Assembly (NCBI RefSeq): GCF_054482595.1
Contig: NZ_JBTHVH010000004.1
Source of the DNA: a plasmid
DNA: 64,000 bases
Strand: one strand, 5' to 3'
Part shown: positions 27,462 to 53,502 of the stretch, in pieces
How the letters are laid out: every line of letters starts with the position of its first letter
How positions within the stretch are numbered: the first letter of the stretch is position 1
The notes under the pieces: generated by a model
Database searches by the model: none
Told to the model about the DNA's origin: nothing
The model's input: only the letters and a program-made list of their open reading frames with translations
Position numbers and translations under genes: made by a program

Positions 27462-28281
27462 GGCACTGTTGCAAAGTTAGCGATGAGGCAGCCTTTTGTC
27501 TTATTCAAAGGCCTTACATTTCAAAAACTCTGCTTACCAGGCGCATTTCGCCCAGGGGATCACCATAATAAAATGCTGAGGCCTGGCCTTTGCGTAGTGC
27601 ACGCATCACCTCAATACCTTTGATGGTGGCGTAAGCCGTCTTCATGGATTTAAATCCCAGCGTGGCGCCGATTATCCGTTTCAGTTTGCCATGATCGCAT
27701 TCAATCACGTTGTTCCGGTACTTAATCTGTCGGTGTTCAACGTCAGACGGGCACCGGCCTTCGCGTTTGAGCAGAGCAAGCGCGCGACCATAGGCGGGCG
27801 CTTTATCCGTGTTGATGAATCGCGGGATCTGCCACTTCTTCACGTTGTTGAGGATTTTACCCAGAAACCGGTATGCAGCTTTGCTGTTACGACGGGAGGA
27901 GAGATAAAAATCGACAGTGCGGCCCCGGCTGTCGACGGCCCGGTACAGATACGCCCAGCGGCCATTGACCTTCACGTAGGTTTCATCCATGTGCCACGGG
28001 CAAAGATCGGAAGGGTTACGCCAGTACCAGCGCAGCCGTTTTTCCATTTCAGGCGCATAACGCTGAACCCAGCGGTAAATCGTGGAGTGATCGACATTCA
28101 CTCCGCGTTCAGCCAGCATCTCCTGCAGCTCACGGTAACTGATGCCGTATTTGCAGTACCAGCGTACGGCCCACAGAATGATGTCACGCTGAAAATGCCG
28201 GCCTTTGAATGGGTTCATGTGCAGCTCCATCAGCAAAAGGGGATGATAAGTTTATCACCACCGACTATTTGCAACAGTGCC
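27462..28281 (-). mobile_element. IS26 copy 1 (820 bp)
   Basis: 14-bp terminal inverted repeats GGCACTGTTGCAAA at both ends; internal transposase identical in all five copies; no target-site duplication. Confidence 0.95.
27514..28218 (-). CDS. tnpA: IS26 transposase (234 aa)
   Basis: 'MNPFKGRHFQRDIILWAVRWYCKYGISYRELQEM...'; the track ORF includes a 6-codon upstream extension. Confidence 0.95.
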   Translation of the reverse strand: MNPFKGRHFQRDIILWAVRWYCKYGISYRELQEMLAERGVNVDHSTIYRWVQRYAPEMEKRLRWYWRNPSDLCPWHMDETYVKVNGRWAYLYRAVDSRGRTVDFYLSSRRNSKAAYRFLGKILNNVKKWQIPRFINTDKAPAYGRALALLKREGRCPSDVEHRQIKYRNNVIECDHGKLKRIIGATLGFKSMKTAYATIKGIEVMRALRKGQASAFYYGDPLGEMRLVSRVFEM

Positions 28282-38793: not shown

Positions 38794-39613
38794 GGCACTG
38801 TTGCAAAGTTAGCGATGAGGCAGCCTTTTGTCTTATTCAAAGGCCTTACATTTCAAAAACTCTGCTTACCAGGCGCATTTCGCCCAGGGGATCACCATAA
38901 TAAAATGCTGAGGCCTGGCCTTTGCGTAGTGCACGCATCACCTCAATACCTTTGATGGTGGCGTAAGCCGTCTTCATGGATTTAAATCCCAGCGTGGCGC
39001 CGATTATCCGTTTCAGTTTGCCATGATCGCATTCAATCACGTTGTTCCGGTACTTAATCTGTCGGTGTTCAACGTCAGACGGGCACCGGCCTTCGCGTTT
39101 GAGCAGAGCAAGCGCGCGACCATAGGCGGGCGCTTTATCCGTGTTGATGAATCGCGGGATCTGCCACTTCTTCACGTTGTTGAGGATTTTACCCAGAAAC
39201 CGGTATGCAGCTTTGCTGTTACGACGGGAGGAGAGATAAAAATCGACAGTGCGGCCCCGGCTGTCGACGGCCCGGTACAGATACGCCCAGCGGCCATTGA
39301 CCTTCACGTAGGTTTCATCCATGTGCCACGGGCAAAGATCGGAAGGGTTACGCCAGTACCAGCGCAGCCGTTTTTCCATTTCAGGCGCATAACGCTGAAC
39401 CCAGCGGTAAATCGTGGAGTGATCGACATTCACTCCGCGTTCAGCCAGCATCTCCTGCAGCTCACGGTAACTGATGCCGTATTTGCAGTACCAGCGTACG
39501 GCCCACAGAATGATGTCACGCTGAAAATGCCGGCCTTTGAATGGGTTCATGTGCAGCTCCATCAGCAAAAGGGGATGATAAGTTTATCACCACCGACTAT
39601 TTGCAACAGTGCC
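38794..39613 (-). mobile_element. IS26 copy 2
   Basis: Identical terminal repeats and transposase; boundary set by the fixed 52/45-bp offsets from the tnp ORF; no target-site duplication. Confidence 0.95.
38846..39550 (-). CDS. tnpA: IS26 transposase
   Basis: Identical to copy 1. Confidence 0.95.
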   Translation of the reverse strand: MNPFKGRHFQRDIILWAVRWYCKYGISYRELQEMLAERGVNVDHSTIYRWVQRYAPEMEKRLRWYWRNPSDLCPWHMDETYVKVNGRWAYLYRAVDSRGRTVDFYLSSRRNSKAAYRFLGKILNNVKKWQIPRFINTDKAPAYGRALALLKREGRCPSDVEHRQIKYRNNVIECDHGKLKRIIGATLGFKSMKTAYATIKGIEVMRALRKGQASAFYYGDPLGEMRLVSRVFEM

Positions 39614-41716: not shown

Positions 41717-42536
41717 GGCACTGTTGCAAATAGTCGGTGGTGATAAACTTATCATCCCCTTTTGCTGATGGAGCTGCACATGAACCCATTCAAAGGCCGG
41801 CATTTTCAGCGTGACATCATTCTGTGGGCCGTACGCTGGTACTGCAAATACGGCATCAGTTACCGTGAGCTGCAGGAGATGCTGGCTGAACGCGGAGTGA
41901 ATGTCGATCACTCCACGATTTACCGCTGGGTTCAGCGTTATGCGCCTGAAATGGAAAAACGGCTGCGCTGGTACTGGCGTAACCCTTCCGATCTTTGCCC
42001 GTGGCACATGGATGAAACCTACGTGAAGGTCAATGGCCGCTGGGCGTATCTGTACCGGGCCGTCGACAGCCGGGGCCGCACTGTCGATTTTTATCTCTCC
42101 TCCCGTCGTAACAGCAAAGCTGCATACCGGTTTCTGGGTAAAATCCTCAACAACGTGAAGAAGTGGCAGATCCCGCGATTCATCAACACGGATAAAGCGC
42201 CCGCCTATGGTCGCGCGCTTGCTCTGCTCAAACGCGAAGGCCGGTGCCCGTCTGACGTTGAACACCGACAGATTAAGTACCGGAACAACGTGATTGAATG
42301 CGATCATGGCAAACTGAAACGGATAATCGGCGCCACGCTGGGATTTAAATCCATGAAGACGGCTTACGCCACCATCAAAGGTATTGAGGTGATGCGTGCA
42401 CTACGCAAAGGCCAGGCCTCAGCATTTTATTATGGTGATCCCCTGGGCGAAATGCGCCTGGTAAGCAGAGTTTTTGAAATGTAAGGCCTTTGAATAAGAC
42501 AAAAGGCTGCCTCATCGCTAACTTTGCAACAGTGCC
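41717..42536 (+). mobile_element. IS26 copy 3
   Basis: Terminal repeats at both ends; opposite orientation to copies 1 and 2. Confidence 0.95.
41780..42484 (+). CDS. tnpA: IS26 transposase
   Basis: Identical to the other copies. Confidence 0.95.
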   Translation: MNPFKGRHFQRDIILWAVRWYCKYGISYRELQEMLAERGVNVDHSTIYRWVQRYAPEMEKRLRWYWRNPSDLCPWHMDETYVKVNGRWAYLYRAVDSRGRTVDFYLSSRRNSKAAYRFLGKILNNVKKWQIPRFINTDKAPAYGRALALLKREGRCPSDVEHRQIKYRNNVIECDHGKLKRIIGATLGFKSMKTAYATIKGIEVMRALRKGQASAFYYGDPLGEMRLVSRVFEM

Positions 42537-44294: not shown

Positions 44295-44711
44295 TCAATC
44301 AAAAAAGACCATCCCCTTGTAGGGGCGTTCGCGACAGGCGGCCAGCCGCTGCGCCAGATTCCCCACATGCAGCTCCAGCTTATGGCCGTCAGGGTCGAGA
44401 AAATAGTAAGACGCCCCTTCACTGCGGTTATCTTTCCATACCTCAGCCCCCGCCTGCGCCAGCAGAGCCACCACCCCGGCAAACTCTTCTTCCGCCACGC
44501 TGAAGGCGTAGTGGGTATAGTCGCTTTCCTGAGGGGGCGTTTTACGCCGCTGCTCATCCAGCGACAAGCACAGCCACAGCGCCCCACAGGAGAGATAGGC
44601 TCCGCTATCCCAGCTGGCGTGCAGGCGCATTCCAGGTAACTGCTGATAAAATGCCAGGCTTGACGCCAGATCGCTGACCGCCAGCGTCAGATGATTCAAT
44701 CCCTGCAGCAT
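44295..44711 (-). CDS. fosA3: Fosfomycin thiol transferase FosA3
   Basis: 138 aa '[54 protein letters not shown]...' matches recalled FosA3; ATG at 44711. Confidence 0.9.
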
Positions 44712-45033
44712 GACTTTTCCTCCCGTTATCAAACCCTGTTGTAAACTGTGATCGGCGACGCATCCCCTCCCGGCCTCACCTCATCACCGGCTAAAAAGCG
44801 CATTTTTTGCGTTTAGCCTGCCATCGGAAACCTGCGCCTCGCCACACTAATCCCCGCTCTATGTTACCCCTTTTTTGAAATCATTTAGCAATCCAATAAC
44901 ATTTCATCCCCCCGGAAAAAGCGGGCTAAAAATCGCCTTATTGAAGACCAAATCAGCACCGACATTACAGCATAAAGACATAAATAAACGCCCTAAAAAG
45001 ACTAAATCACAGAGCTATATCCTAAATAATTAC

Positions 45034-46594
<1,561 letters not shown>

Positions 46595-46703: not shown

Positions 46704-46741
46704 CTTAACGTGAGTTTTCGTTCCACTGAGCGTCAGACCCC
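46704..46741. repeat. Tn2/Tn3 38-bp terminal inverted repeat
   Basis: 'CTTAACGTGAGTTTTCGTTCCACTGAGCGTCAGACCCC' downstream of blaTEM. Confidence 0.85.
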
Positions 46742-47355
46742 GTATATCGCTTGCTGATTACGTGCAGCTTTCCCTTCAGGCGGGATTCATACAGCGGCCA
46801 GCCATCCGTCATCCATATCACCACGTCAAAGGGTGACAGCAGGCTCAGAAGACGCTCCAGTGTGGCCAGAGTGCGTTCACCGAAAACGTGCGCCACAACT
46901 GTCCTCCGTATCCTGTCATACGCGTAAAACAGCCAGCGCTGACGTGATTTAGCACCGACGTAGCCCCACTGTTCGTCCATTTCAGCGCAGACAATCACAT
47001 CACTGCCCGGTTGTATGCGCGAGGTTACCGACTGCGGCCTGAGTTTTTTAAGTGACGTAAAACCGTGTTGAGGCCAACGCCCATAATGCGGGCAGTTGCC
47101 CGGCATCCAACGCCATTCATGGCCATATCAATGATTTTCTGGTGCGTACCGGGTTGAGAAGCGGTGTAAGTGAACTGCAGTTGCCATGTTTTACGGCAGT
47201 GAGAGCAGAGATAGCGCTGGTGTCCGGCAGTGCTTTTGCCGTTACGCACCACCCCGTCAGTAGCTGAACAGGAGGGACAGCTGATAGAAACAGAAGCCAC
47301 TGGAGCACCTCAAAAACACCATCATACACTAAATCAGTAAGTTGGCAGCATCACC
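46742..47355 (-). mobile_element. IS1, truncated (about 614 bp; insA intact, insB 3'-truncated)
   Basis: Matches the full IS1 at 37288..38055 from an internal point to the insA-proximal end '...GTTGGCAGCATCACC'; abuts the Tn2 IR. Confidence 0.85.
47025..47300 (-). CDS. insA: IS1 InsA
   Basis: Near-identical to insA at 37725..38000. Confidence 0.85.
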
Positions 47356-47401: not shown

Positions 47402-47725
47402 TTATCCATTTTTGCCAGCGTGTTCCGCAACATCTGTTTTACTGTTTACACAGCACTCTTCACGTAAGAATTCGATGATAGCTTCCAGTATTTCGTATTG
47501 AGAGACACACATGAGCGTTCGACTCTCCCGGTTTTGTGTGACGAGCCCTACTGATACCAGGGCTGAAATATGATGACTTAACGTTGATGAGGGAATGCCA
47601 AGCTGCTTTTGCAATTCACCTACAGGCAAACCTTGTTCTCCAGCTTTTACAAGATGTTTGAATATGAACAAACGGGTCGGGTGACCCAGCTCTTTTAGTG
47701 CTTTAGCTACTTCTTCCAGTTGCAT
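47402..47725 (-). CDS. ArsR/SmtB-family metalloregulatory transcriptional repressor
   Basis: 107 aa with HTH 'LPVGELQKQLGIPSSTLSHHISAL' and C-terminal Cys pair 'ECCVN'. Confidence 0.7.
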   Translation of the reverse strand: MQLEEVAKALKELGHPTRLFIFKHLVKAGEQGLPVGELQKQLGIPSSTLSHHISALVSVGLVTQNRESRTLMCVSQYEILEAIIEFLREECCVNSKTDVAEHAGKNG

Positions 47726-47830: not shown

Positions 47831-48964
47831 ATGAATAGTTGGATTTCTATGCTGCAAGATGCCGCAGAGATGTTTTTGTTTTTGGCCGTCGAGCTATCTT
47901 TGCTGTTTATTGTCATCAGTGCCGGTGTGAGCCTGATAAGGCAAAAGGTCCCGGACCATAAAATCCAGCAATTGATAGGGGCGAAAAAAGGAAAAGGCTA
48001 CCTGCTGGCCTCGTTGTTGGGAGCCGTTACCCCTTTCTGTAGTTGCTCAACAATTCCAATGCTACGAGGGTTGTTGTCGGCGAAAGCAGGGTTTGGTCCG
48101 ACACTCACTTTTTTGTTTGTTTCACCGTTGCTTAATCCCATTATCGTGGGGTTAATGTGGGTTACCTTTGGCTGGAAAGTAACTTTGTTGTACGCGATCA
48201 TCGCTGCCGGTGTCTCAGTCCTTGCCAGTATCGTATTGGATTTACTAGGATTTGAACGTCATATTGTTGATCACAAAAACTCAGCATCAAGTGGTTGCAC
48301 CACGAAATGCGATGATTCCGAAGCTTCGGTAAAAACGTCGGCGGGTTCCAGTTGTTGCAGCACTAGCTCGACTCAATTGCCTTTAAAAACGAGTTGCTGT
48401 ACTTCATCAGCGAACCCCATAATTAACTTAAGGACGGTAAAGAACGAGCAGAACGTATCAGCGTGTTGTTCATCAATATCATCTGAACAACCAGCTGTTA
48501 GCTGTTGCAGCAGCGAGAATCTGGGCAATGTGAATCTCACAACGAATACCACCTCTGGCCCAATAAAGTTAGCTATGAAAGATGCCTTACAGCAGTTTAA
48601 GGATGTTCTGCCTTATCTTTTGTTAAGTGTATTAATAGGTTCATTTATTTATGGCTTTATCCCTTCAGAGTGGATTGCAGCTCATGCCGGAGCAGATAAT
48701 CCCTTAGCCATACCGCTGAGTGCAGTTGTTGGTATTCCGTTGTATATCCGCGCAGAGGCAGTGATACCACTTGCATCAGTGCTGATGACTAAAGGAATGG
48801 GCCTGGGGGCATTAATGGCCTTGATAATCGGTAGTGCTGGAGCGAGTTTGACAGAAGTAATACTGCTTAAATCAATGTTCAGAATGCCTATGATAGTCGC
48901 TTTTCTGACAGTAATCCTGGGTATGGCCATACTTATGGGGTATCTGACCCAATTGCTTTTTTAA
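47831..48964 (+). CDS. Permease with conserved 'TPFCSCS' motif (ArsP-like) and Cys/Ser-rich central loop
   Basis: Multi-TM protein; 'VTPFCSCSTIP' motif; divergent from the arsR-like gene; ATG at 47831 preferred over TTG at 47813. Confidence 0.6.
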   Translation: MNSWISMLQDAAEMFLFLAVELSLLFIVISAGVSLIRQKVPDHKIQQLIGAKKGKGYLLASLLGAVTPFCSCSTIPMLRGLLSAKAGFGPTLTFLFVSPLLNPIIVGLMWVTFGWKVTLLYAIIAAGVSVLASIVLDLLGFERHIVDHKNSASSGCTTKCDDSEASVKTSAGSSCCSTSSTQLPLKTSCCTSSANPIINLRTVKNEQNVSACCSSISSEQPAVSCCSSENLGNVNLTTNTTSGPIKLAMKDALQQFKDVLPYLLLSVLIGSFIYGFIPSEWIAAHAGADNPLAIPLSAVVGIPLYIRAEAVIPLASVLMTKGMGLGALMALIIGSAGASLTEVILLKSMFRMPMIVAFLTVILGMAILMGYLTQLLF

Positions 48965-48988
48965 TAATAATAGTAAGGGTCTTCTGGT

Positions 48989-49808
48989 GGCACTGTTGCA
49001 AATAGTCGGTGGTGATAAACTTATCATCCCCTTTTGCTGATGGAGCTGCACATGAACCCATTCAAAGGCCGGCATTTTCAGCGTGACATCATTCTGTGGG
49101 CCGTACGCTGGTACTGCAAATACGGCATCAGTTACCGTGAGCTGCAGGAGATGCTGGCTGAACGCGGAGTGAATGTCGATCACTCCACGATTTACCGCTG
49201 GGTTCAGCGTTATGCGCCTGAAATGGAAAAACGGCTGCGCTGGTACTGGCGTAACCCTTCCGATCTTTGCCCGTGGCACATGGATGAAACCTACGTGAAG
49301 GTCAATGGCCGCTGGGCGTATCTGTACCGGGCCGTCGACAGCCGGGGCCGCACTGTCGATTTTTATCTCTCCTCCCGTCGTAACAGCAAAGCTGCATACC
49401 GGTTTCTGGGTAAAATCCTCAACAACGTGAAGAAGTGGCAGATCCCGCGATTCATCAACACGGATAAAGCGCCCGCCTATGGTCGCGCGCTTGCTCTGCT
49501 CAAACGCGAAGGCCGGTGCCCGTCTGACGTTGAACACCGACAGATTAAGTACCGGAACAACGTGATTGAATGCGATCATGGCAAACTGAAACGGATAATC
49601 GGCGCCACGCTGGGATTTAAATCCATGAAGACGGCTTACGCCACCATCAAAGGTATTGAGGTGATGCGTGCACTACGCAAAGGCCAGGCCTCAGCATTTT
49701 ATTATGGTGATCCCCTGGGCGAAATGCGCCTGGTAAGCAGAGTTTTTGAAATGTAAGGCCTTTGAATAAGACAAAAGGCTGCCTCATCGCTAACTTTGCA
49801 ACAGTGCC
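48989..49808 (+). mobile_element. IS26 copy 5, flanked by an 8-bp target-site duplication CTTCTGGT
   Basis: Identical 8-mer at 48981..48988 and 49809..49816 directly abutting the inverted repeats; the only IS26 copy with a duplication. Confidence 0.95.
49052..49756 (+). CDS. tnpA: IS26 transposase
   Basis: Identical to the other copies. Confidence 0.95.
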   Translation: MNPFKGRHFQRDIILWAVRWYCKYGISYRELQEMLAERGVNVDHSTIYRWVQRYAPEMEKRLRWYWRNPSDLCPWHMDETYVKVNGRWAYLYRAVDSRGRTVDFYLSSRRNSKAAYRFLGKILNNVKKWQIPRFINTDKAPAYGRALALLKREGRCPSDVEHRQIKYRNNVIECDHGKLKRIIGATLGFKSMKTAYATIKGIEVMRALRKGQASAFYYGDPLGEMRLVSRVFEM

Positions 49809-49919
49809 CTTCTGGTTTCATGTTGAACAAAGAAGACCCTTTAGCTTCTGTAATCCATTTAATCAGTCTGAATGAAATAGATTATAAATTCTGCTCTGCA
49901 TACCTGCTTAACCAAAGTC

Positions 49920-50314
49920 TCATGATTCTGATTGTCGGTACAGTGCCTGAATGTGGCATATCTGGGAGGTGCTGTACCCTGTTGCATCTGCCGTTTCTTT
50001 CTTGACCTGCCGGTAGTAAAGTACCTTTTGATGCCGTTCCTGAGCGACCTGTTTTCCCTGATATTTACCCAGCGTATGTGCGAGTTCAACTCCCTGCTTT
50101 TGGCGCTGGCGGTCAATTTGCTCGACCAGCAAAATATCATTGCGGTGACTGTCCATCAGTAAGCGACCCAGTTCCGGTCGGTCAAGTTTTGTACCGCTGA
50201 TATTCTCCCGGTAGTAACTGGCTATTTTATGCCCCCGCTCCTAAACAAACTGCTCCAGCATCTCTTTTGCCCGATCGGTGAACTGATCTTCCGTCTATGC
50301 CCTTAAATAAGTGC
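49920..50314 (-). pseudogene. Serine recombinase (resolvase/invertase-like) pseudogene
   Basis: Conceptual translation 'MFISTYLRA*TEDQ...LEQFV*ERGHKIASYYRENISGTKLDRPELGRLL...TGYSTSQICHIQALYR': two in-frame TAG codons, the first at the expected catalytic-Ser position (Y.R.S.T.DQ), and a shortened central region. Confidence 0.55.
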
Positions 50315-50491
50315 TGATGAACATTTTTTCACCGCATTACCGCATTTAGGTTATTGCATTTAATCTATCGCATATAGGCTATGTCGTTCATTGTGTGCCG
50401 TCACGTTTAGATTATGGTGTCAGGGTATACCCTTATGCGATAACCATTTTTGTTAAAAATAACGCATCGAATAATTTATGAGGAAAACTAT

Positions 50492-53479
50492 ATGGCAAGG
50501 AGGCAGATTCTTTCTCTGTCGGAAAGAGAATCATTACTGGCATTACCGGACGATGAGTTAACGCTGACCCGAATGGCCTATTTCAGTGAGCATGATCTGG
50601 CGCTTATCAGTGCTCACCGTAAACCCGCCAGCCGTTTTGGTTTTGCCGTCCTTCTTTGCTATCTGAAAAATGTCGGCTTTGCCCCGGATAAAAAAATCTC
50701 TCCCTCTGATGCGCTGCTGAAGCATATCGCCAGCAGGCTAAAGCTTACCGGGGATCTCTGGCCTGCTTACCTTTCCGGCCGGGATACGACCCTGCGTGAG
50801 CATTTAACCGAACTGTACCGCTATCTTGGCGTAAAGGCGTTCACCGGCAAAATACAGCAGGACTGTATTACGCACCTGTTATCGATGGCGACGCGCACCG
50901 ATAAAGGCATTCTCCTAGCCGAAGAGTTACTTGTCTATCTCCGGCAGAACAACGTGATAATCCCCGCGATTGATGTCGTGGAGCGTACCTGTGCTGAAGT
51001 CATGGCAGGCGGCGATAAAATCGTATTTCAGACCCTGAATGCCCCGTTAACTCCGGCTCACAGGGATGCCCTGGATCATTTACTTGAGTCATCAGATAAT
51101 CAGCCTTCCAGGCTGACATGGCTTCTGCAACCGCCGGGTAAAATCAATGGTAAGAACGTGCTGCAACATCTTGATCGGCTCAGCAGCATTGAATCGCTGG
51201 CATTACCTGAAGGTATAGATCGTACCATTCACCAGAACCGGTTGCTGAAACTGGCGCGGGAAGGCCGAAAGATGAGTAGCCGGGATTTGACCCGATTTTC
51301 AGCTGCCCGGCGTCATGCGATCCTGGTGTGCGTGCTGGAAGAAGCCAGAGCCACACTGACAGACGAAGTGATTGAGCTGCATGAGCGAATGCTGAATAGT
51401 CTTTTCAGCAAAGCCAAACGAACACAGGCTGAGCGCCTTCAGCAGACCGGAAAGCTGATCCAGTCAAAACTGAGGCAGTACATCGATGTCGGTCAGGCGC
51501 TGTCTGATGCCCGTGATTCCGGTGGCGATCCCTGGCTCGCAATAGAAAACATACTCCCATGGGCTGAATTTGTCGCCAGTCTGGATGAAACACGCCATCT
51601 CGCCAGAAAAAATAATTTTGACCCGCTGCATATTATTACCGAGAAATACAGCACATTACGGAAATATGCCCCACGCATGTTGTCCGCTTTACAGTTAGTC
51701 GCAACCCCGGCAGCGCAACCTCTGGCTGATGCACTGGTTGTGATCAAGGATATGTACCGGAAGCAGTCACGTAAAGTTCCGGCGGCAGCGCCGCTTGAGT
51801 TTGTCCCTGAAAGCTGGCGCAAGGTGGTGATTACACCTGTGGGTATTGACCGGCAGTACTATGAGTTTTGTGCACTCAGCGAGCTTAAGGGGGCGTTGCG
51901 CTCCGGGGATATCTGGGTTAAAGGCTCGCGCCGCTACAAAAATTTTGATGATTACCTCATACCCGAGAAGGACTTTGACAAACTCACACCGGCACTGCCA
52001 CTGCCCGTATCTGCTGATTATCATGAGTACATTACCAGCCGTATGACCCTGCTTCAGTCCAGACTTGAAGAGGTCAATGCCATGGCTGCCCTTGGTGAAC
52101 TGCCCGATGTGGAAATATCCGACAGGGGCGTAAAAGTCTCTCCGCTGGATAACTGCGTTCCGGCGCAGGTTTCACCGCTGGCAGAGCTGGTTTACAGCAT
52201 GCTACCGCGACCTAAAATCACGGAAATTCTCGATGAGGTAAACAGCTGGACGACGTTTACCCGACATTTTTCGCATATAAAAAATGACATTACCCGTCCC
52301 GATACCCGCTTGCTCCTCACCACCATTCTTGCGGATGGCATCAATCTTGGCCTGACCAAAATGGCAGAAGCCTGCCCCGGGAGCACCAAATCATCACTCG
52401 AAGATATTCAGGCATGGTACATCCGTGACGAAACCTATTCAGCCGCTCTTGCAGAGCTGGTAAATGCGCAGGGGAAAAGACCGTTGGCGGCATTTTGGGG
52501 AGACGGAACAACGTCATCATCAGATGGACAAAATTTCAGAACCGGCAGCTCAGGCCGCTACGCAGGGCAGGTTAACCCGAAATATGGGCAAGAGCCTGGA
52601 CGTCAGTTTTATACCCATATTTCGGATCAATACAGCCCGTTTTACACCTGCATAATCAGTCGGGTCAGGGATTCAACCCATGTTCTCGATGGCTTGCTGT
52701 ACCACGAAAGCGACCTGGAAATCAGGGAACATTACACCGATACCGCTGGTTTCACCGATCATGTCTTTGCCCTGATGCATCTGTTGGGATTTGCGTTCTG
52801 TCCGCGAATCAGGGATCTCCACGACAAAAAACTGTTTATCAAAGGGAAAGCAGAGAAATACCCGGCGCTTCAGTCACTGATATCAACGACCAGCCTGAAT
52901 CTGAAAGAGATCGAAATCCACTGGCGTGAAGTGCTGCGTCTGGCAACCTCGATAAAGCAGGGAACCGTGACGGCATCCCTGATGCTGAAAAAGCTTGCCA
53001 GCTATCCCAAGCAAAACGGACTTGCCAAAGCACTGAGAGAAATTGGCCGCATTGAGCGAACCCTGTTTATGCTCGACTGGTTCCGCGACCCGGCTCTGCG
53101 TCGGCGGGTACAGGCGGGGCTGAATAAAGGCGAAGCCCGTAACGCGCTGGCGCGTGCGGTATTTATGCACCGACTGGGAGAAATCAGGGACAGAAAACCG
53201 GAAAATCAGAGCTATCGCGCCAGTGGACTGACGCTGCTGACGGCTGCCATATCCCTGTGGAATACCGTCTATATGGAAAGAGCGGTCGATGCCCTGAAGC
53301 GTAAAGGGGTGAAGATCAACGAGCAACTGCTGTCGCATTTGTCGCCGTTGGGCTGGGAACACATCAATCTGACAGGTGATTATATCTGGAAAAGCAACCG
53401 GATACCGGCTTCTGGTAAGTTTCGTCGGCTAAGACCAGCTAAAGTCGAAAGGTCAAAAAACAGCCTTAACGTACAATAA
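50492..53479 (+). CDS. tnpA: Tn3-family transposase TnpA (995 aa)
   Basis: Full-length; conserved C-terminal '...HYTDTAGFTDHVFALMHLLGF...LSPLGWEHINLTGDYIW'; ATG at 50492 with AGGAAAAC RBS. Confidence 0.85.
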   Translation: MARRQILSLSERESLLALPDDELTLTRMAYFSEHDLALISAHRKPASRFGFAVLLCYLKNVGFAPDKKISPSDALLKHIASRLKLTGDLWPAYLSGRDTTLREHLTELYRYLGVKAFTGKIQQDCITHLLSMATRTDKGILLAEELLVYLRQNNVIIPAIDVVERTCAEVMAGGDKIVFQTLNAPLTPAHRDALDHLLESSDNQPSRLTWLLQPPGKINGKNVLQHLDRLSSIESLALPEGIDRTIHQNRLLKLAREGRKMSSRDLTRFSAARRHAILVCVLEEARATLTDEVIELHERMLNSLFSKAKRTQAERLQQTGKLIQSKLRQYIDVGQALSDARDSGGDPWLAIENILPWAEFVASLDETRHLARKNNFDPLHIITEKYSTLRKYAPRMLSALQLVATPAAQPLADALVVIKDMYRKQSRKVPAAAPLEFVPESWRKVVITPVGIDRQYYEFCALSELKGALRSGDIWVKGSRRYKNFDDYLIPEKDFDKLTPALPLPVSADYHEYITSRMTLLQSRLEEVNAMAALGELPDVEISDRGVKVSPLDNCVPAQVSPLAELVYSMLPRPKITEILDEVNSWTTFTRHFSHIKNDITRPDTRLLLTTILADGINLGLTKMAEACPGSTKSSLEDIQAWYIRDETYSAALAELVNAQGKRPLAAFWGDGTTSSSDGQNFRTGSSGRYAGQVNPKYGQEPGRQFYTHISDQYSPFYTCIISRVRDSTHVLDGLLYHESDLEIREHYTDTAGFTDHVFALMHLLGFAFCPRIRDLHDKKLFIKGKAEKYPALQSLISTTSLNLKEIEIHWREVLRLATSIKQGTVTASLMLKKLASYPKQNGLAKALREIGRIERTLFMLDWFRDPALRRRVQAGLNKGEARNALARAVFMHRLGEIRDRKPENQSYRASGLTLLTAAISLWNTVYMERAVDALKRKGVKINEQLLSHLSPLGWEHINLTGDYIWKSNRIPASGKFRRLRPAKVERSKNSLNVQ

Positions 53480-53502
53480 TTTTCGATATCCAAACTGACC
53501 CC
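53465..53502. repeat. Tn3-family 38-bp terminal inverted repeat overlapping the tnpA stop
   Basis: 'CTTAACGTACAATAATTTTCGATATCCAAACTGACCCC' shares the CTTAACGT..GACCCC ends of the Tn3 IR; no partner left IR found in the window. Confidence 0.55.

What the first reader, a model, noticed from the sequence alone, without database searches (positions are those of the whole stretch)
49920..50314. Resolvase-like pseudogene with a stop codon at the catalytic serine position
The conceptual translation shows a serine-recombinase N-terminus in which the position of the catalytic Ser (Y-x-R-x-S-T-x-DQ) is a TAG codon; a second in-frame TAG follows and the central region is shortened. It lies divergent from the Tn3-family tnpA, where a resolvase is expected. 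Either the resolvase is dead (so cointegrates could not resolve) or the sequence has errors here.
Basis: seen in the sequence. Interest (0 to 1): 0.45.

Follow-up and report, generated by a model that had tools for sequence, protein, structure and literature searches.

The report
Dead resolvase gene in a transposon
This is a real, decayed copy of the resolvase gene of a Tn3-type transposon; public annotation already marks it as a pseudogene in hundreds of plasmids, and the transposon has kept moving without it.

Summary
Window 49920-50324 (minus strand) is a 405-nt remnant of a serine resolvase gene (tnpR). It lies divergent from an intact Tn3-family tnpA (50492-53479).

Compared with an intact 213-aa relative, it carries four lesions:
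- TAG in place of the catalytic Ser10 codon (TCG);
- TAG in place of Gln28 (CAG);
- a 222-bp in-frame deletion that removes half of the catalytic domain;
- a 12-bp in-frame deletion.

It is not a sequencing error. The 405 nt were identical in all 11 deletion-type plasmid copies I fetched. The lineage-specific 3' half is at least 99% identical in 256 PLSDB plasmids from six genera. RefSeq/PGAP annotates it as "recombinase family protein, pseudo, internal stop".

An undeleted precursor with three TAG stops sits next to a full arsenic-resistance cluster. The stops therefore most likely came first and the deletion later.

Three complete copies at three different sites each have their own 5-bp target duplication and are identical outside an inserted IS1. 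The element therefore transposed, and ended up as simple insertions, after tnpR died. The likely routes are host RecA or a related resolvase acting in trans.

This is ordinary and already annotated. Interest is low.

The parts
49920..50324 (-). tnpR pseudogene: 134 codons plus stop, the remnant of a serine resolvase of about 208-213 aa.
   Evidence: Translation. Alignment to the intact relative L001. tblastn E=5e-41 and 4e-28. PGAP annotates the same 405 nt as 'recombinase family protein; pseudo; internal stop'.
50295..50297 (-). TAG at codon 10, the catalytic serine position. Intact relatives have TCG.
   Evidence: Mapping onto Ser10 of gamma-delta resolvase.
50241..50243 (-). TAG at codon 28. 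Intact relatives have CAG (Gln).
   Evidence: Two short contigs (L026, L027) have CAG here but keep the TAG at codon 10.
50108..50112 (-). Junction of the 222-bp (74-codon) in-frame deletion, inside a 5-bp CCGCC microhomology. It removes residues of about 73-146: the second half of the catalytic domain, including the arginine equivalent to gamma-delta R71.
   Evidence: Alignment A1. Pfam Resolvase domain spans residues 5-161 of the intact relative. DRLTR aligns to DRLGR of gamma-delta. The undeleted state is preserved in L020-L025.
49994..50001 (-). Site of the 12-bp (4-codon) in-frame gap relative to other family members (KKLSIQET becomes KKET). It lies at the start of the C-terminal helix-turn-helix region and is shared with the undeleted precursor.
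   Evidence: Alignment A1. P0090 and L020 carry the same gap.
50325..50491 (.). res region between tnpR and tnpA. It contains repeated TATCGCAT-like motifs. A candidate crossover subsite (site I) is the palindrome at 50412-50443, centred on TA|TA at 50427/50428, on the tnpA side.
   Evidence: Palindrome I11. Conservation across five family members. Two hybrid joints map here: divergence from L001 switches from 24 mismatches in 50130-50427 to none in 50428-50748, and homology with L020 ends just past the centre. Site I lying next to tnpA with a central TA crossover is the published Tn3-type layout (PMC7157771). The site assignment is inferred, not tested.
50492..53479 (+). tnpA, an intact Tn3-family DDE transposase of 995 aa.
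   Evidence: NCBIfam NF033527, 1128 bits, full length. PGAP calls it WP_000124023.1 'Tn3 family transposase'. It is 99.6% identical to the tnpA of L001.
53465..53502 (-). Right terminal inverted repeat, 38 bp: GGGGTCAGTTTGGATATCGAAAATTATTGTACGTTAAG.
   Evidence: Homology with L001 ends exactly here. There is a single exact match in the window. A perfect inverted copy forms the left end in L004, L005, L007, L008, L010 and L012.
48989..49808 (+). IS26, a later simple insertion into the transposon between the permease gene and tnpR. Its 8-bp target duplication CTTCTGGT lies at 48981-48988 and 49809-49816.
   Evidence: (compared with the uninterrupted L004).
47831..48964 (+). Passenger gene: ArsP_1-family permease (PF03773).
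   Evidence: PGAP 'permease'. Pfam ArsP_1 on the identical gene in L019 and L020.
47402..47725 (-). Passenger gene: ArsR/SmtB-family regulator.
   Evidence: PGAP annotation.
46705..47355 (-). Truncated IS1 that ends the transposon on the left in this window. The left 311 bp and the left inverted repeat are missing here.
   Evidence: PGAP 'IS1 family transposase, incomplete'. IS1 end at 47355. No left inverted repeat in the window. Complete copies have IRL, then 311 bp, then IS1 at this same position.

Best explanation
The feature is the non-functional remnant of the resolvase gene (tnpR) of a Tn3-type transposon. The element's order is: left inverted repeat, IS1, arsR, arsP-like permease, dead tnpR, res, tnpA, right inverted repeat.

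The gene was first killed by nonsense mutations: TCG to TAG at the catalytic Ser10 and CAG to TAG at Gln28. An undeleted sister copy also has TGG to TAG at Trp104. The gene then lost 74 codons through a slippage-type deletion between CCGCC repeats. It cannot make a recombinase.

The transposase and both ends are intact in complete copies, and this one clone of the element has spread among enterobacterial plasmids.

Replicative transposition should give cointegrates. The inference is that these are resolved by host homologous recombination between the two 6.4-kb copies, or by resolvases of closely related co-resident transposons acting on the retained res. By analogy with Tn3, where TnpR also represses tnpA, loss of TnpR probably derepresses the transposase.

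In this window the element is further damaged: an IS26 has inserted downstream of tnpR, and the left arm is cut off at the IS1.
For: Shown:
- The four lesions relative to an intact relative, and the catalytic-Ser mapping.
- The deletion removes half of the Pfam Resolvase domain.
- The 405 nt are byte-identical in all 11 deletion-type copies fetched from different plasmids.
- The lineage-specific 3' half is at least 99% identical in 256 PLSDB plasmids: Escherichia 162, Salmonella 67, Klebsiella 14, Citrobacter 7, Shigella 5, Enterobacter 1.
- PGAP annotates it as a pseudogene.
- The undeleted precursor has TAG at codons 10, 28 and 104. It sits beside arsP-arsR-arsH-sigma-acr3-arsD-arsA in L020-L025 and in one Citrobacter plasmid.
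- Three complete copies have perfect 38-bp inverted repeats and different 5-bp target duplications: TTGGT, TATCA and TTCTC. They have zero differences outside the IS1.
- There are six different right-hand junctions in 12 loci. Only 52 PLSDB records share this window's junction.
- tnpA is intact.
- The window contains no other serine recombinase and no tRNA gene.

From the literature: the Tn3-type res layout and TnpR acting as repressor (PMC7157771).
Against: The route by which cointegrates are resolved was not tested. Conservative or one-ended events cannot be excluded.

Identical copies at different sites could in principle reflect gene conversion of older insertions rather than new transposition, though that is less parsimonious.

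Stop-free 134-aa ORFs with the same deletions exist in metagenome assemblies (P0001, P0122, P0123, P0126, P0127). These could mean the deletion once existed in an open frame. However, their contigs have k-mer coverage below 1. They are also 8-10% diverged from the window exactly from the deletion junction rightwards, as expected for recombinants or assembly chimeras with intact relatives.
Confidence: 0.9

Rival explanations
1. The stops are sequencing or assembly errors and the gene is really intact.
For: A few short contigs show CAG at codon 28 (L026, L027) or no stops at all (L018, L019).
Against: The sequence is identical in hundreds of complete plasmid assemblies from many laboratories and platforms. 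The 222-bp deletion alone would inactivate the enzyme whatever the stops do. The stop-free contigs are low-coverage metagenome assemblies that diverge 8-10% in the 5' half.
Confidence: 0.01
2. The TAG codons are read through, either by an amber suppressor or by recoding, so that a protein is still made.
For: All nonsense codons in this lineage are TAG: two here and three in the undeleted precursor.
Against: The three TAGs replace three different amino acids (Ser, Gln, Trp), which does not fit a reassigned codon. Each is the only, or one of only two, single-step stops available from TCG, CAG and TGG. There is no tRNA gene in the window. Even if read through, the product lacks residues of about 73-146 of the catalytic domain.
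Confidence: 0.02
3. A truncated product is retained for DNA binding. The candidate is the 78-aa ORF starting at Met57 (50156 down to 49920), which carries the C-terminal helix-turn-helix. It would bind res and repress tnpA without recombining.
For: Both deletions are in frame, and the frame stays open for 106 codons after the second TAG. The ORF 49920-50156 is listed. In Tn3, TnpR is a repressor that acts through res (PMC7157771).
Against: Two in-frame deletions have about a 1 in 9 chance under neutrality. I saw no Shine-Dalgarno-like sequence upstream of that ATG when reading the sequence. All copies are identical, so there is no variation with which to test selection. The window's res carries lineage-specific changes in the repeated motifs. 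PGAP calls no such gene.
Confidence: 0.04

Closest known systems
Tn3 / gamma-delta (Tn1000) type transposition module of the Tn3 family (divergent tnpR and tnpA with res between them)
   Same: The transposase is about 1000 aa. The 38-bp terminal inverted repeats start GGGGTC and end ACGTTAAG. Target duplications are 5 bp. The serine resolvase gene is divergent from tnpA, with a 167-bp res region between them. The candidate crossover palindrome lies on the tnpA side.
   Different: The resolvase gene here is dead. The intact relatives' TnpR is only distantly similar in sequence to gamma-delta resolvase (phmmer E about 4e-4 over the N-terminal 90 residues) and is longer (213 against 183 aa). The cargo is an ars remnant rather than bla.
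Unnamed family of enterobacterial Tn3-type transposons with intact 'recombinase family protein' tnpR (for example NZ_CP156945 = L001, NZ_CP023917 = L014, NZ_CP149263 = L015, NZ_CP129512 = L016)
   Same: The tnpA is 94-99.6% identical. The inverted repeat is identical where I compared it (L001). The res region is 85-96% identical, and the tnpR 5' half is 89-94% identical.
   Different: Those elements have an open 211-219-aa tnpR and other cargo: frmRAB, bacteriocin export genes, or a CDF transporter. The window's res/tnpR side is a different, more diverged module. It is joined to an L001-like tnpA at the candidate res site I. Some papers call elements in these positions 'Tn5403' (PMC8637017, PMC7347964). 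I could not check this against a Tn5403 reference sequence.
Tn3-family elements that transpose without their own resolvase (IS1071-type elements; TIMEs and TIME-COMPs mobilised in trans)
   Same: These are Tn3-family ends plus transposase, or ends alone, moving without an element-encoded resolvase (PMC4133298 and PMC13367494, listed; IS1071 is named as a subgroup in PMC7157771).
   Different: Here the resolvase gene and res are still physically present as a recent pseudogene, rather than absent.

Membership tests
Serine recombinase (resolvase/invertase, Pfam PF00239) - functional member | A catalytic serine nucleophile in the N-terminal Y-x-R-x-S-T-x-x-Q motif. | tested here: not met
   Codon 10 is TAG, where relatives have TCG. 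It aligns to Ser10 of gamma-delta resolvase.
Serine recombinase (resolvase/invertase, Pfam PF00239) - functional member | A complete catalytic domain of about 140 residues, including the D-R-x-x-R motif and the long E-helix. | tested here: not met
   The 74-codon deletion removes residues of about 73-146. Only D-R of DRLTR remains.
Serine recombinase (resolvase/invertase, Pfam PF00239) - homologue by descent | Significant sequence similarity to family members over both domains. | tested here: met
   93% identity over residues 1-72 and 76% over residues 146-212 of an intact TnpR. NCBIfam serine-recombinase models hit the repaired N-terminus. Pfam finds Resolvase plus a helix-turn-helix on the intact relative.
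Tn3-family transposon | A large DDE transposase (TnpA, about 1000 aa). | tested here: met
   NF033527, 1128 bits, full length, 995 aa.
Tn3-family transposon | Terminal inverted repeats of about 38 bp at both ends. | tested here: inconclusive
   The right repeat is present at 53465-53502. The left repeat is absent from this window because the left arm is cut at the IS1. Both perfect repeats are present in the complete copies L004, L005 and L008.
Tn3-family transposon | A 5-bp target-site duplication. | tested here: met
   TTGGT (L004), TATCA (L005) and TTCTC (L008). This cannot be tested for the truncated copy in the window.
Tn3-family transposon | A working cointegrate-resolution system: a res site plus a cognate recombinase. 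| tested here: not met
   A res-like region is retained, but the cognate recombinase gene is a pseudogene. No other serine recombinase is present in the 64-kb window.

The most novel reading that the evidence does not exclude
Loss of TnpR is not just decay but helped this element succeed. Without its repressor/resolvase, tnpA would be derepressed and cointegrates would persist. One clone of the element would then both hop unusually often and fuse plasmids. The data show identical copies at six or more junctions, on IncHI2, IncF, IncN-hybrid and P1-like phage-plasmids, in six genera. This would contribute to multi-replicon resistance plasmids.
Probability: 0.15. Interest if true: 0.4.

Novelty: already known. 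Interest (0 to 1): 0.12.

Why it matters
It matters little on its own. The feature is a correctly spotted pseudogene that RefSeq already flags.

The useful points are practical:
- The stops are real and should not be 'corrected'.
- The element is a remnant of an arsenic-resistance Tn3-type transposon that is widespread in multidrug-resistance plasmids of E. coli and Salmonella.
- It is a natural example of a Tn3-family element that keeps spreading after losing its own resolvase. This is consistent with what laboratory tnpR mutants of Tn3 showed decades ago.

Tried and rejected
**ISEc63.** I recalled this name as a possible match. The papers show ISEc63 is the Tn5393-type transposase, so the lead was dropped.

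**Tn5403.** This name is used in papers for elements at similar positions next to Tn1721/tet(A) and tet(M). No reference sequence was available, and the reported size I remember (3.6 kb) is smaller than tnpA + res + tnpR here. It remains an unverified lead.

**Literature searches.** Searches by RefSeq protein accession, for 'tnpR pseudogene cointegrate', and for an ars-carrying Tn3-family element all found nothing.

**Left inverted repeat.** I looked for it in the window allowing up to 12 mismatches. There is none.

**Insertion into a res site in L008.** I checked whether the L008 insertion lay inside the res of a neighbouring relative. It lies about 35 bp beyond where that remnant ends, so there is no evidence of res targeting.

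**Stop-free ORFs as a functional mini-resolvase.** I considered the stop-free 134-aa metagenome ORFs as evidence for this. I rejected it because the contigs are low-coverage and switch lineage at the deletion junction.

**Promoter and terminator scan.** The scan of the res region was uninformative: 1 hit against 1.8 expected.

**Unresolved cointegrates.** I wanted to inspect the five PLSDB records that carry two copies for unresolved cointegrates, but could not list them with the tools. The one plasmid I opened (L029) had a single copy, inverted relative to L008.

Full report
**What is there**

On the minus strand, window 50324 down to 49920 translates as MFISTYLRA*TEDQFTDRAKEMLEQFV*ERGHKIASYYRENISGTKLDRPELGRLLMDSHRNDILLVEQIDRQRQKQGVELAHTLGKYQGKQVAQERHQKVLYYRQVKKETADATGYSTSQICHIQALYRQSES*. 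The two internal stops are TAG at codon 10 (50295-50297) and TAG at codon 28 (50241-50243).

The gene lies 167 bp from, and divergent to, an intact 995-aa Tn3-family transposase gene at 50492-53479. That gene scores 1128 bits on NCBIfam NF033527 against a cut-off of 500.

**Comparison with an intact relative**

A plasmid of Enterobacter hormaechei (L001, NZ_CP156945) carries an open 213-aa 'recombinase family protein' in the same position. A nucleotide alignment shows four lesions in the window copy:
- TCG to TAG at codon 10;
- CAG to TAG at codon 28;
- a 222-bp in-frame deletion, with its junction inside a CCGCC microhomology at window 50108-50112;
- a 12-bp in-frame gap (KKLSIQET becomes KKET).

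The intact relative has a Pfam Resolvase domain over residues 5-161 and a helix-turn-helix over about 168-205. HMMER alignment to gamma-delta resolvase puts its Ser10 on the catalytic Ser10 of gamma-delta, and its DRLTR on DRLGR. The deletion removes about residues 73-146, which is half of the catalytic domain.

The homology is far beyond chance. tblastn gives 93% identity over residues 1-72 (E=5e-41) and 76% over residues 146-212 (E=4e-28).

**Not an error**

- The 693-bp stretch around the gene is at least 99% identical in 256 PLSDB plasmids and 156 complete E. coli RefSeq records.
- The 3' half of the remnant is specific to this lineage. It hits 256 plasmids at 99% or more: Escherichia 162, Salmonella 67, Klebsiella 14, Citrobacter 7, Shigella 5, Enterobacter 1.
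- In all 11 deletion-type loci I fetched, the 405 nt are byte-identical to the window.
- PGAP annotates exactly these 405 nt as 'recombinase family protein', pseudo, 'internal stop'.

**The element it belongs to**

Homology with L001 ends at window 53502, at a 38-bp end that reads GGGGTCAGTTTGGATATCGAAAATTATTGTACGTTAAG on the minus strand. A perfect inverted copy forms the left end in other plasmids.

Complete copies have this order: left inverted repeat, 311 bp, IS1, arsR-family regulator, ArsP_1-family permease, dead tnpR, res, tnpA, right inverted repeat. They are 6394 bp long including the IS1.

The copy in the window is further damaged:
- The left arm is cut at the IS1, whose end is at 47355. 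No left inverted repeat is present.
- An IS26 (48989-49808) has inserted 111 bp downstream of tnpR, with an 8-bp target duplication CTTCTGGT.

The right flank is IncHI2-type backbone. Only 52 PLSDB records share this junction.

**History of the pseudogene**

A protein search with the repaired translation led to contigs L020-L025. One PLSDB plasmid, Citrobacter pRHBSTW-00599_2 (L028), has the same arrangement. In these, the same tnpR lineage is not deleted but has three TAG stops, at codons 10, 28 and 104 (TGG to TAG).

There the gene sits next to a full arsenic cluster: arsP, arsR, arsH, a sigma factor, acr3, arsD and arsA. It has no tnpA.

The nonsense mutations at codons 10 and 28 are shared with the window, so they most likely predate the 222-bp deletion. 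The deletion removed the region that holds codon 104. Only 1 of the 256 PLSDB lineage hits keeps the central segment at 99% or more. The arsR-permease pair in the window is a remnant of that ars cluster.

All three stops being TAG is unremarkable. TAG is the only single-step stop from TCG and from CAG, and one of two from TGG. The three TAGs replace three different amino acids, which argues against recoding. The window has no tRNA gene.

**Stop-free versions**

Several 134-aa ORFs with both deletions but no stops exist in metagenome assemblies (P0001, P0122, P0123, P0126, P0127). I fetched two of their contigs, L018 and L019. Both are identical to the window from the permease up to the deletion junction. 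From 50130 or 50166 rightwards, through the tnpR 5' half, res and the start of tnpA, they are 8-10% diverged. Their k-mer coverage is below 1.

They are therefore recombinants, or assembly chimeras, with intact relatives. They are not evidence for a maintained 'mini-resolvase'.

Two other short contigs (L026, L027) have CAG at codon 28 but keep the TAG at codon 10. In L026 this change lies within a 30-bp patch of five differences, which looks like a conversion tract.

**Does a dead resolvase strand the element?**

It does not. Three complete copies lie at three different sites, each with its own perfect 5-bp target duplication:

| Locus | Plasmid | Target duplication |
|---|---|---|
| L004 | pHFQ1 | TTGGT |
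| L005 | pCP131-IncFIB | TATCA |
| L008 | pPK8568-122kb | TTCTC |

 Aligned over their full length, these copies differ only inside the IS1. They carry the IS1 at the same position and the same four tnpR lesions. Across 12 loci there are six different right-hand junctions.

The parsimonious reading is that one clone of the element, already resolvase-dead, transposed repeatedly and ended up as simple insertions.

How the cointegrates were resolved is inferred, not shown. The candidates are:
- RecA-dependent recombination between the two 6.4-kb copies.
- Resolution in trans by resolvases of related elements. These are common: several hundred PLSDB records carry relatives of the 5' half of tnpR and of res at 80-95% identity.

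In Tn3, TnpR also represses tnpA through res (PMC7157771). Loss of TnpR probably derepresses the transposase here, but this was not tested.

**The res region**

The 167-bp intergenic region contains repeated TATCGCAT-like motifs. It also contains a palindrome, TTATGGTGTCAGGGTA|TACCCTTATGCGATAA (50412-50443), on the tnpA side. Two independent hybrid joints map to its centre:
- Against L001, there are 24 mismatches between 50130 and 50427, then none until 50749. The tnpA is 99.6% identical.
- In L020, homology with the window ends a few bases past the centre and continues into a different half-site.

This matches the published Tn3-type layout, in which site I lies next to tnpA and the crossover is at a central TA. 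It also matches the known shuffling of Tn3-family modules at res. The site assignment remains an inference.

Compared with five relatives, the window's res carries about ten lineage-specific substitutions, some of them in the repeated motifs. That would fit relaxed constraint, but it could equally be lineage divergence.

**Comparison with known systems, and verdict**

The module is of the Tn3/gamma-delta type. It belongs to a family of enterobacterial Tn3-type transposons that share tnpA, res and tnpR but carry different cargo: frmRAB, bacteriocin export genes, or a CDF transporter. I could not name that family.

As a recombinase, the gene fails the defining tests: it has no nucleophile and no complete catalytic domain. 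As a homologue by descent, it passes.

Elements of the Tn3 family that move without their own resolvase are already known, for example IS1071-type elements and TIMEs.

The finding is a correct observation of an ordinary pseudogene that is already annotated. The sequencing-error alternative is rejected. The predicted consequence, unresolvable cointegrates, is not borne out by the element's distribution.

Noticed in passing
window 27462-28281, 38794-39613, 41717-42536, 45034-45853, 48989-49808: Five IS26 copies lie within 22 kb. They bracket resistance segments, including a FosA3-like ORF at 44295-44732 (minus strand) and a 5'-truncated blaTEM at 45857-46594. This is a typical IS26-built resistance region on an IncHI2-type plasmid related to pTB-nb4.
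   Followed up: partly
window 48981-48988 and 49809-49816: The IS26 next to the pseudogene is a simple insertion with an 8-bp target duplication, CTTCTGGT. Most sampled copies of the transposon lack it; it is shared by pTB-nb4 and pHNGDSC2239PM-1.
   Followed up: yes
L001, L014, L015, L016, L017: A family of Tn3-type transposons shares this tnpA/res/tnpR module at 85-99.6% identity but carries different cargo next to tnpR. The cargo includes formaldehyde detoxification genes (frmRAB), a CPBP/HlyD/ABC exporter set, a CDF transporter with cytochrome b, and LysR with gamma-glutamylcyclotransferase.
   Followed up: partly
L020-L025 and L028 (Citrobacter pRHBSTW-00599_2): The undeleted precursor of this tnpR has three TAG stops and lies beside a complete ars cluster. 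Its res is a hybrid that ends at the candidate site I, and it has no tnpA. It looks like the product of a res-by-res recombination with another site.
   Followed up: partly
L008 (pPK8568-122kb) versus L029 (pPK8217-139kb): In two P1-like phage-plasmids from chickens in Faisalabad, the element sits between the same flanking genes but in opposite orientation. This suggests an in-situ inversion. A second, frameshifted tnpR of a relative lies next to it.
   Followed up: no
L003, L006, L011 (window-equivalent positions 50462, 50478, 50484): A sub-lineage on mcr-1 plasmids (pMR0516mcr, pMCR1-PA) has an internally deleted tnpA. It also has three substitutions just upstream of the tnpA start codon. 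The tnpR remnant itself is unchanged.
   Followed up: no
L004 1847-3320: pHFQ1 has two tandem IS1 copies at the position where other copies of the element have one. All sequence differences among complete copies of the element lie inside the IS1, which suggests conversion with other IS1 copies in the host.
   Followed up: partly
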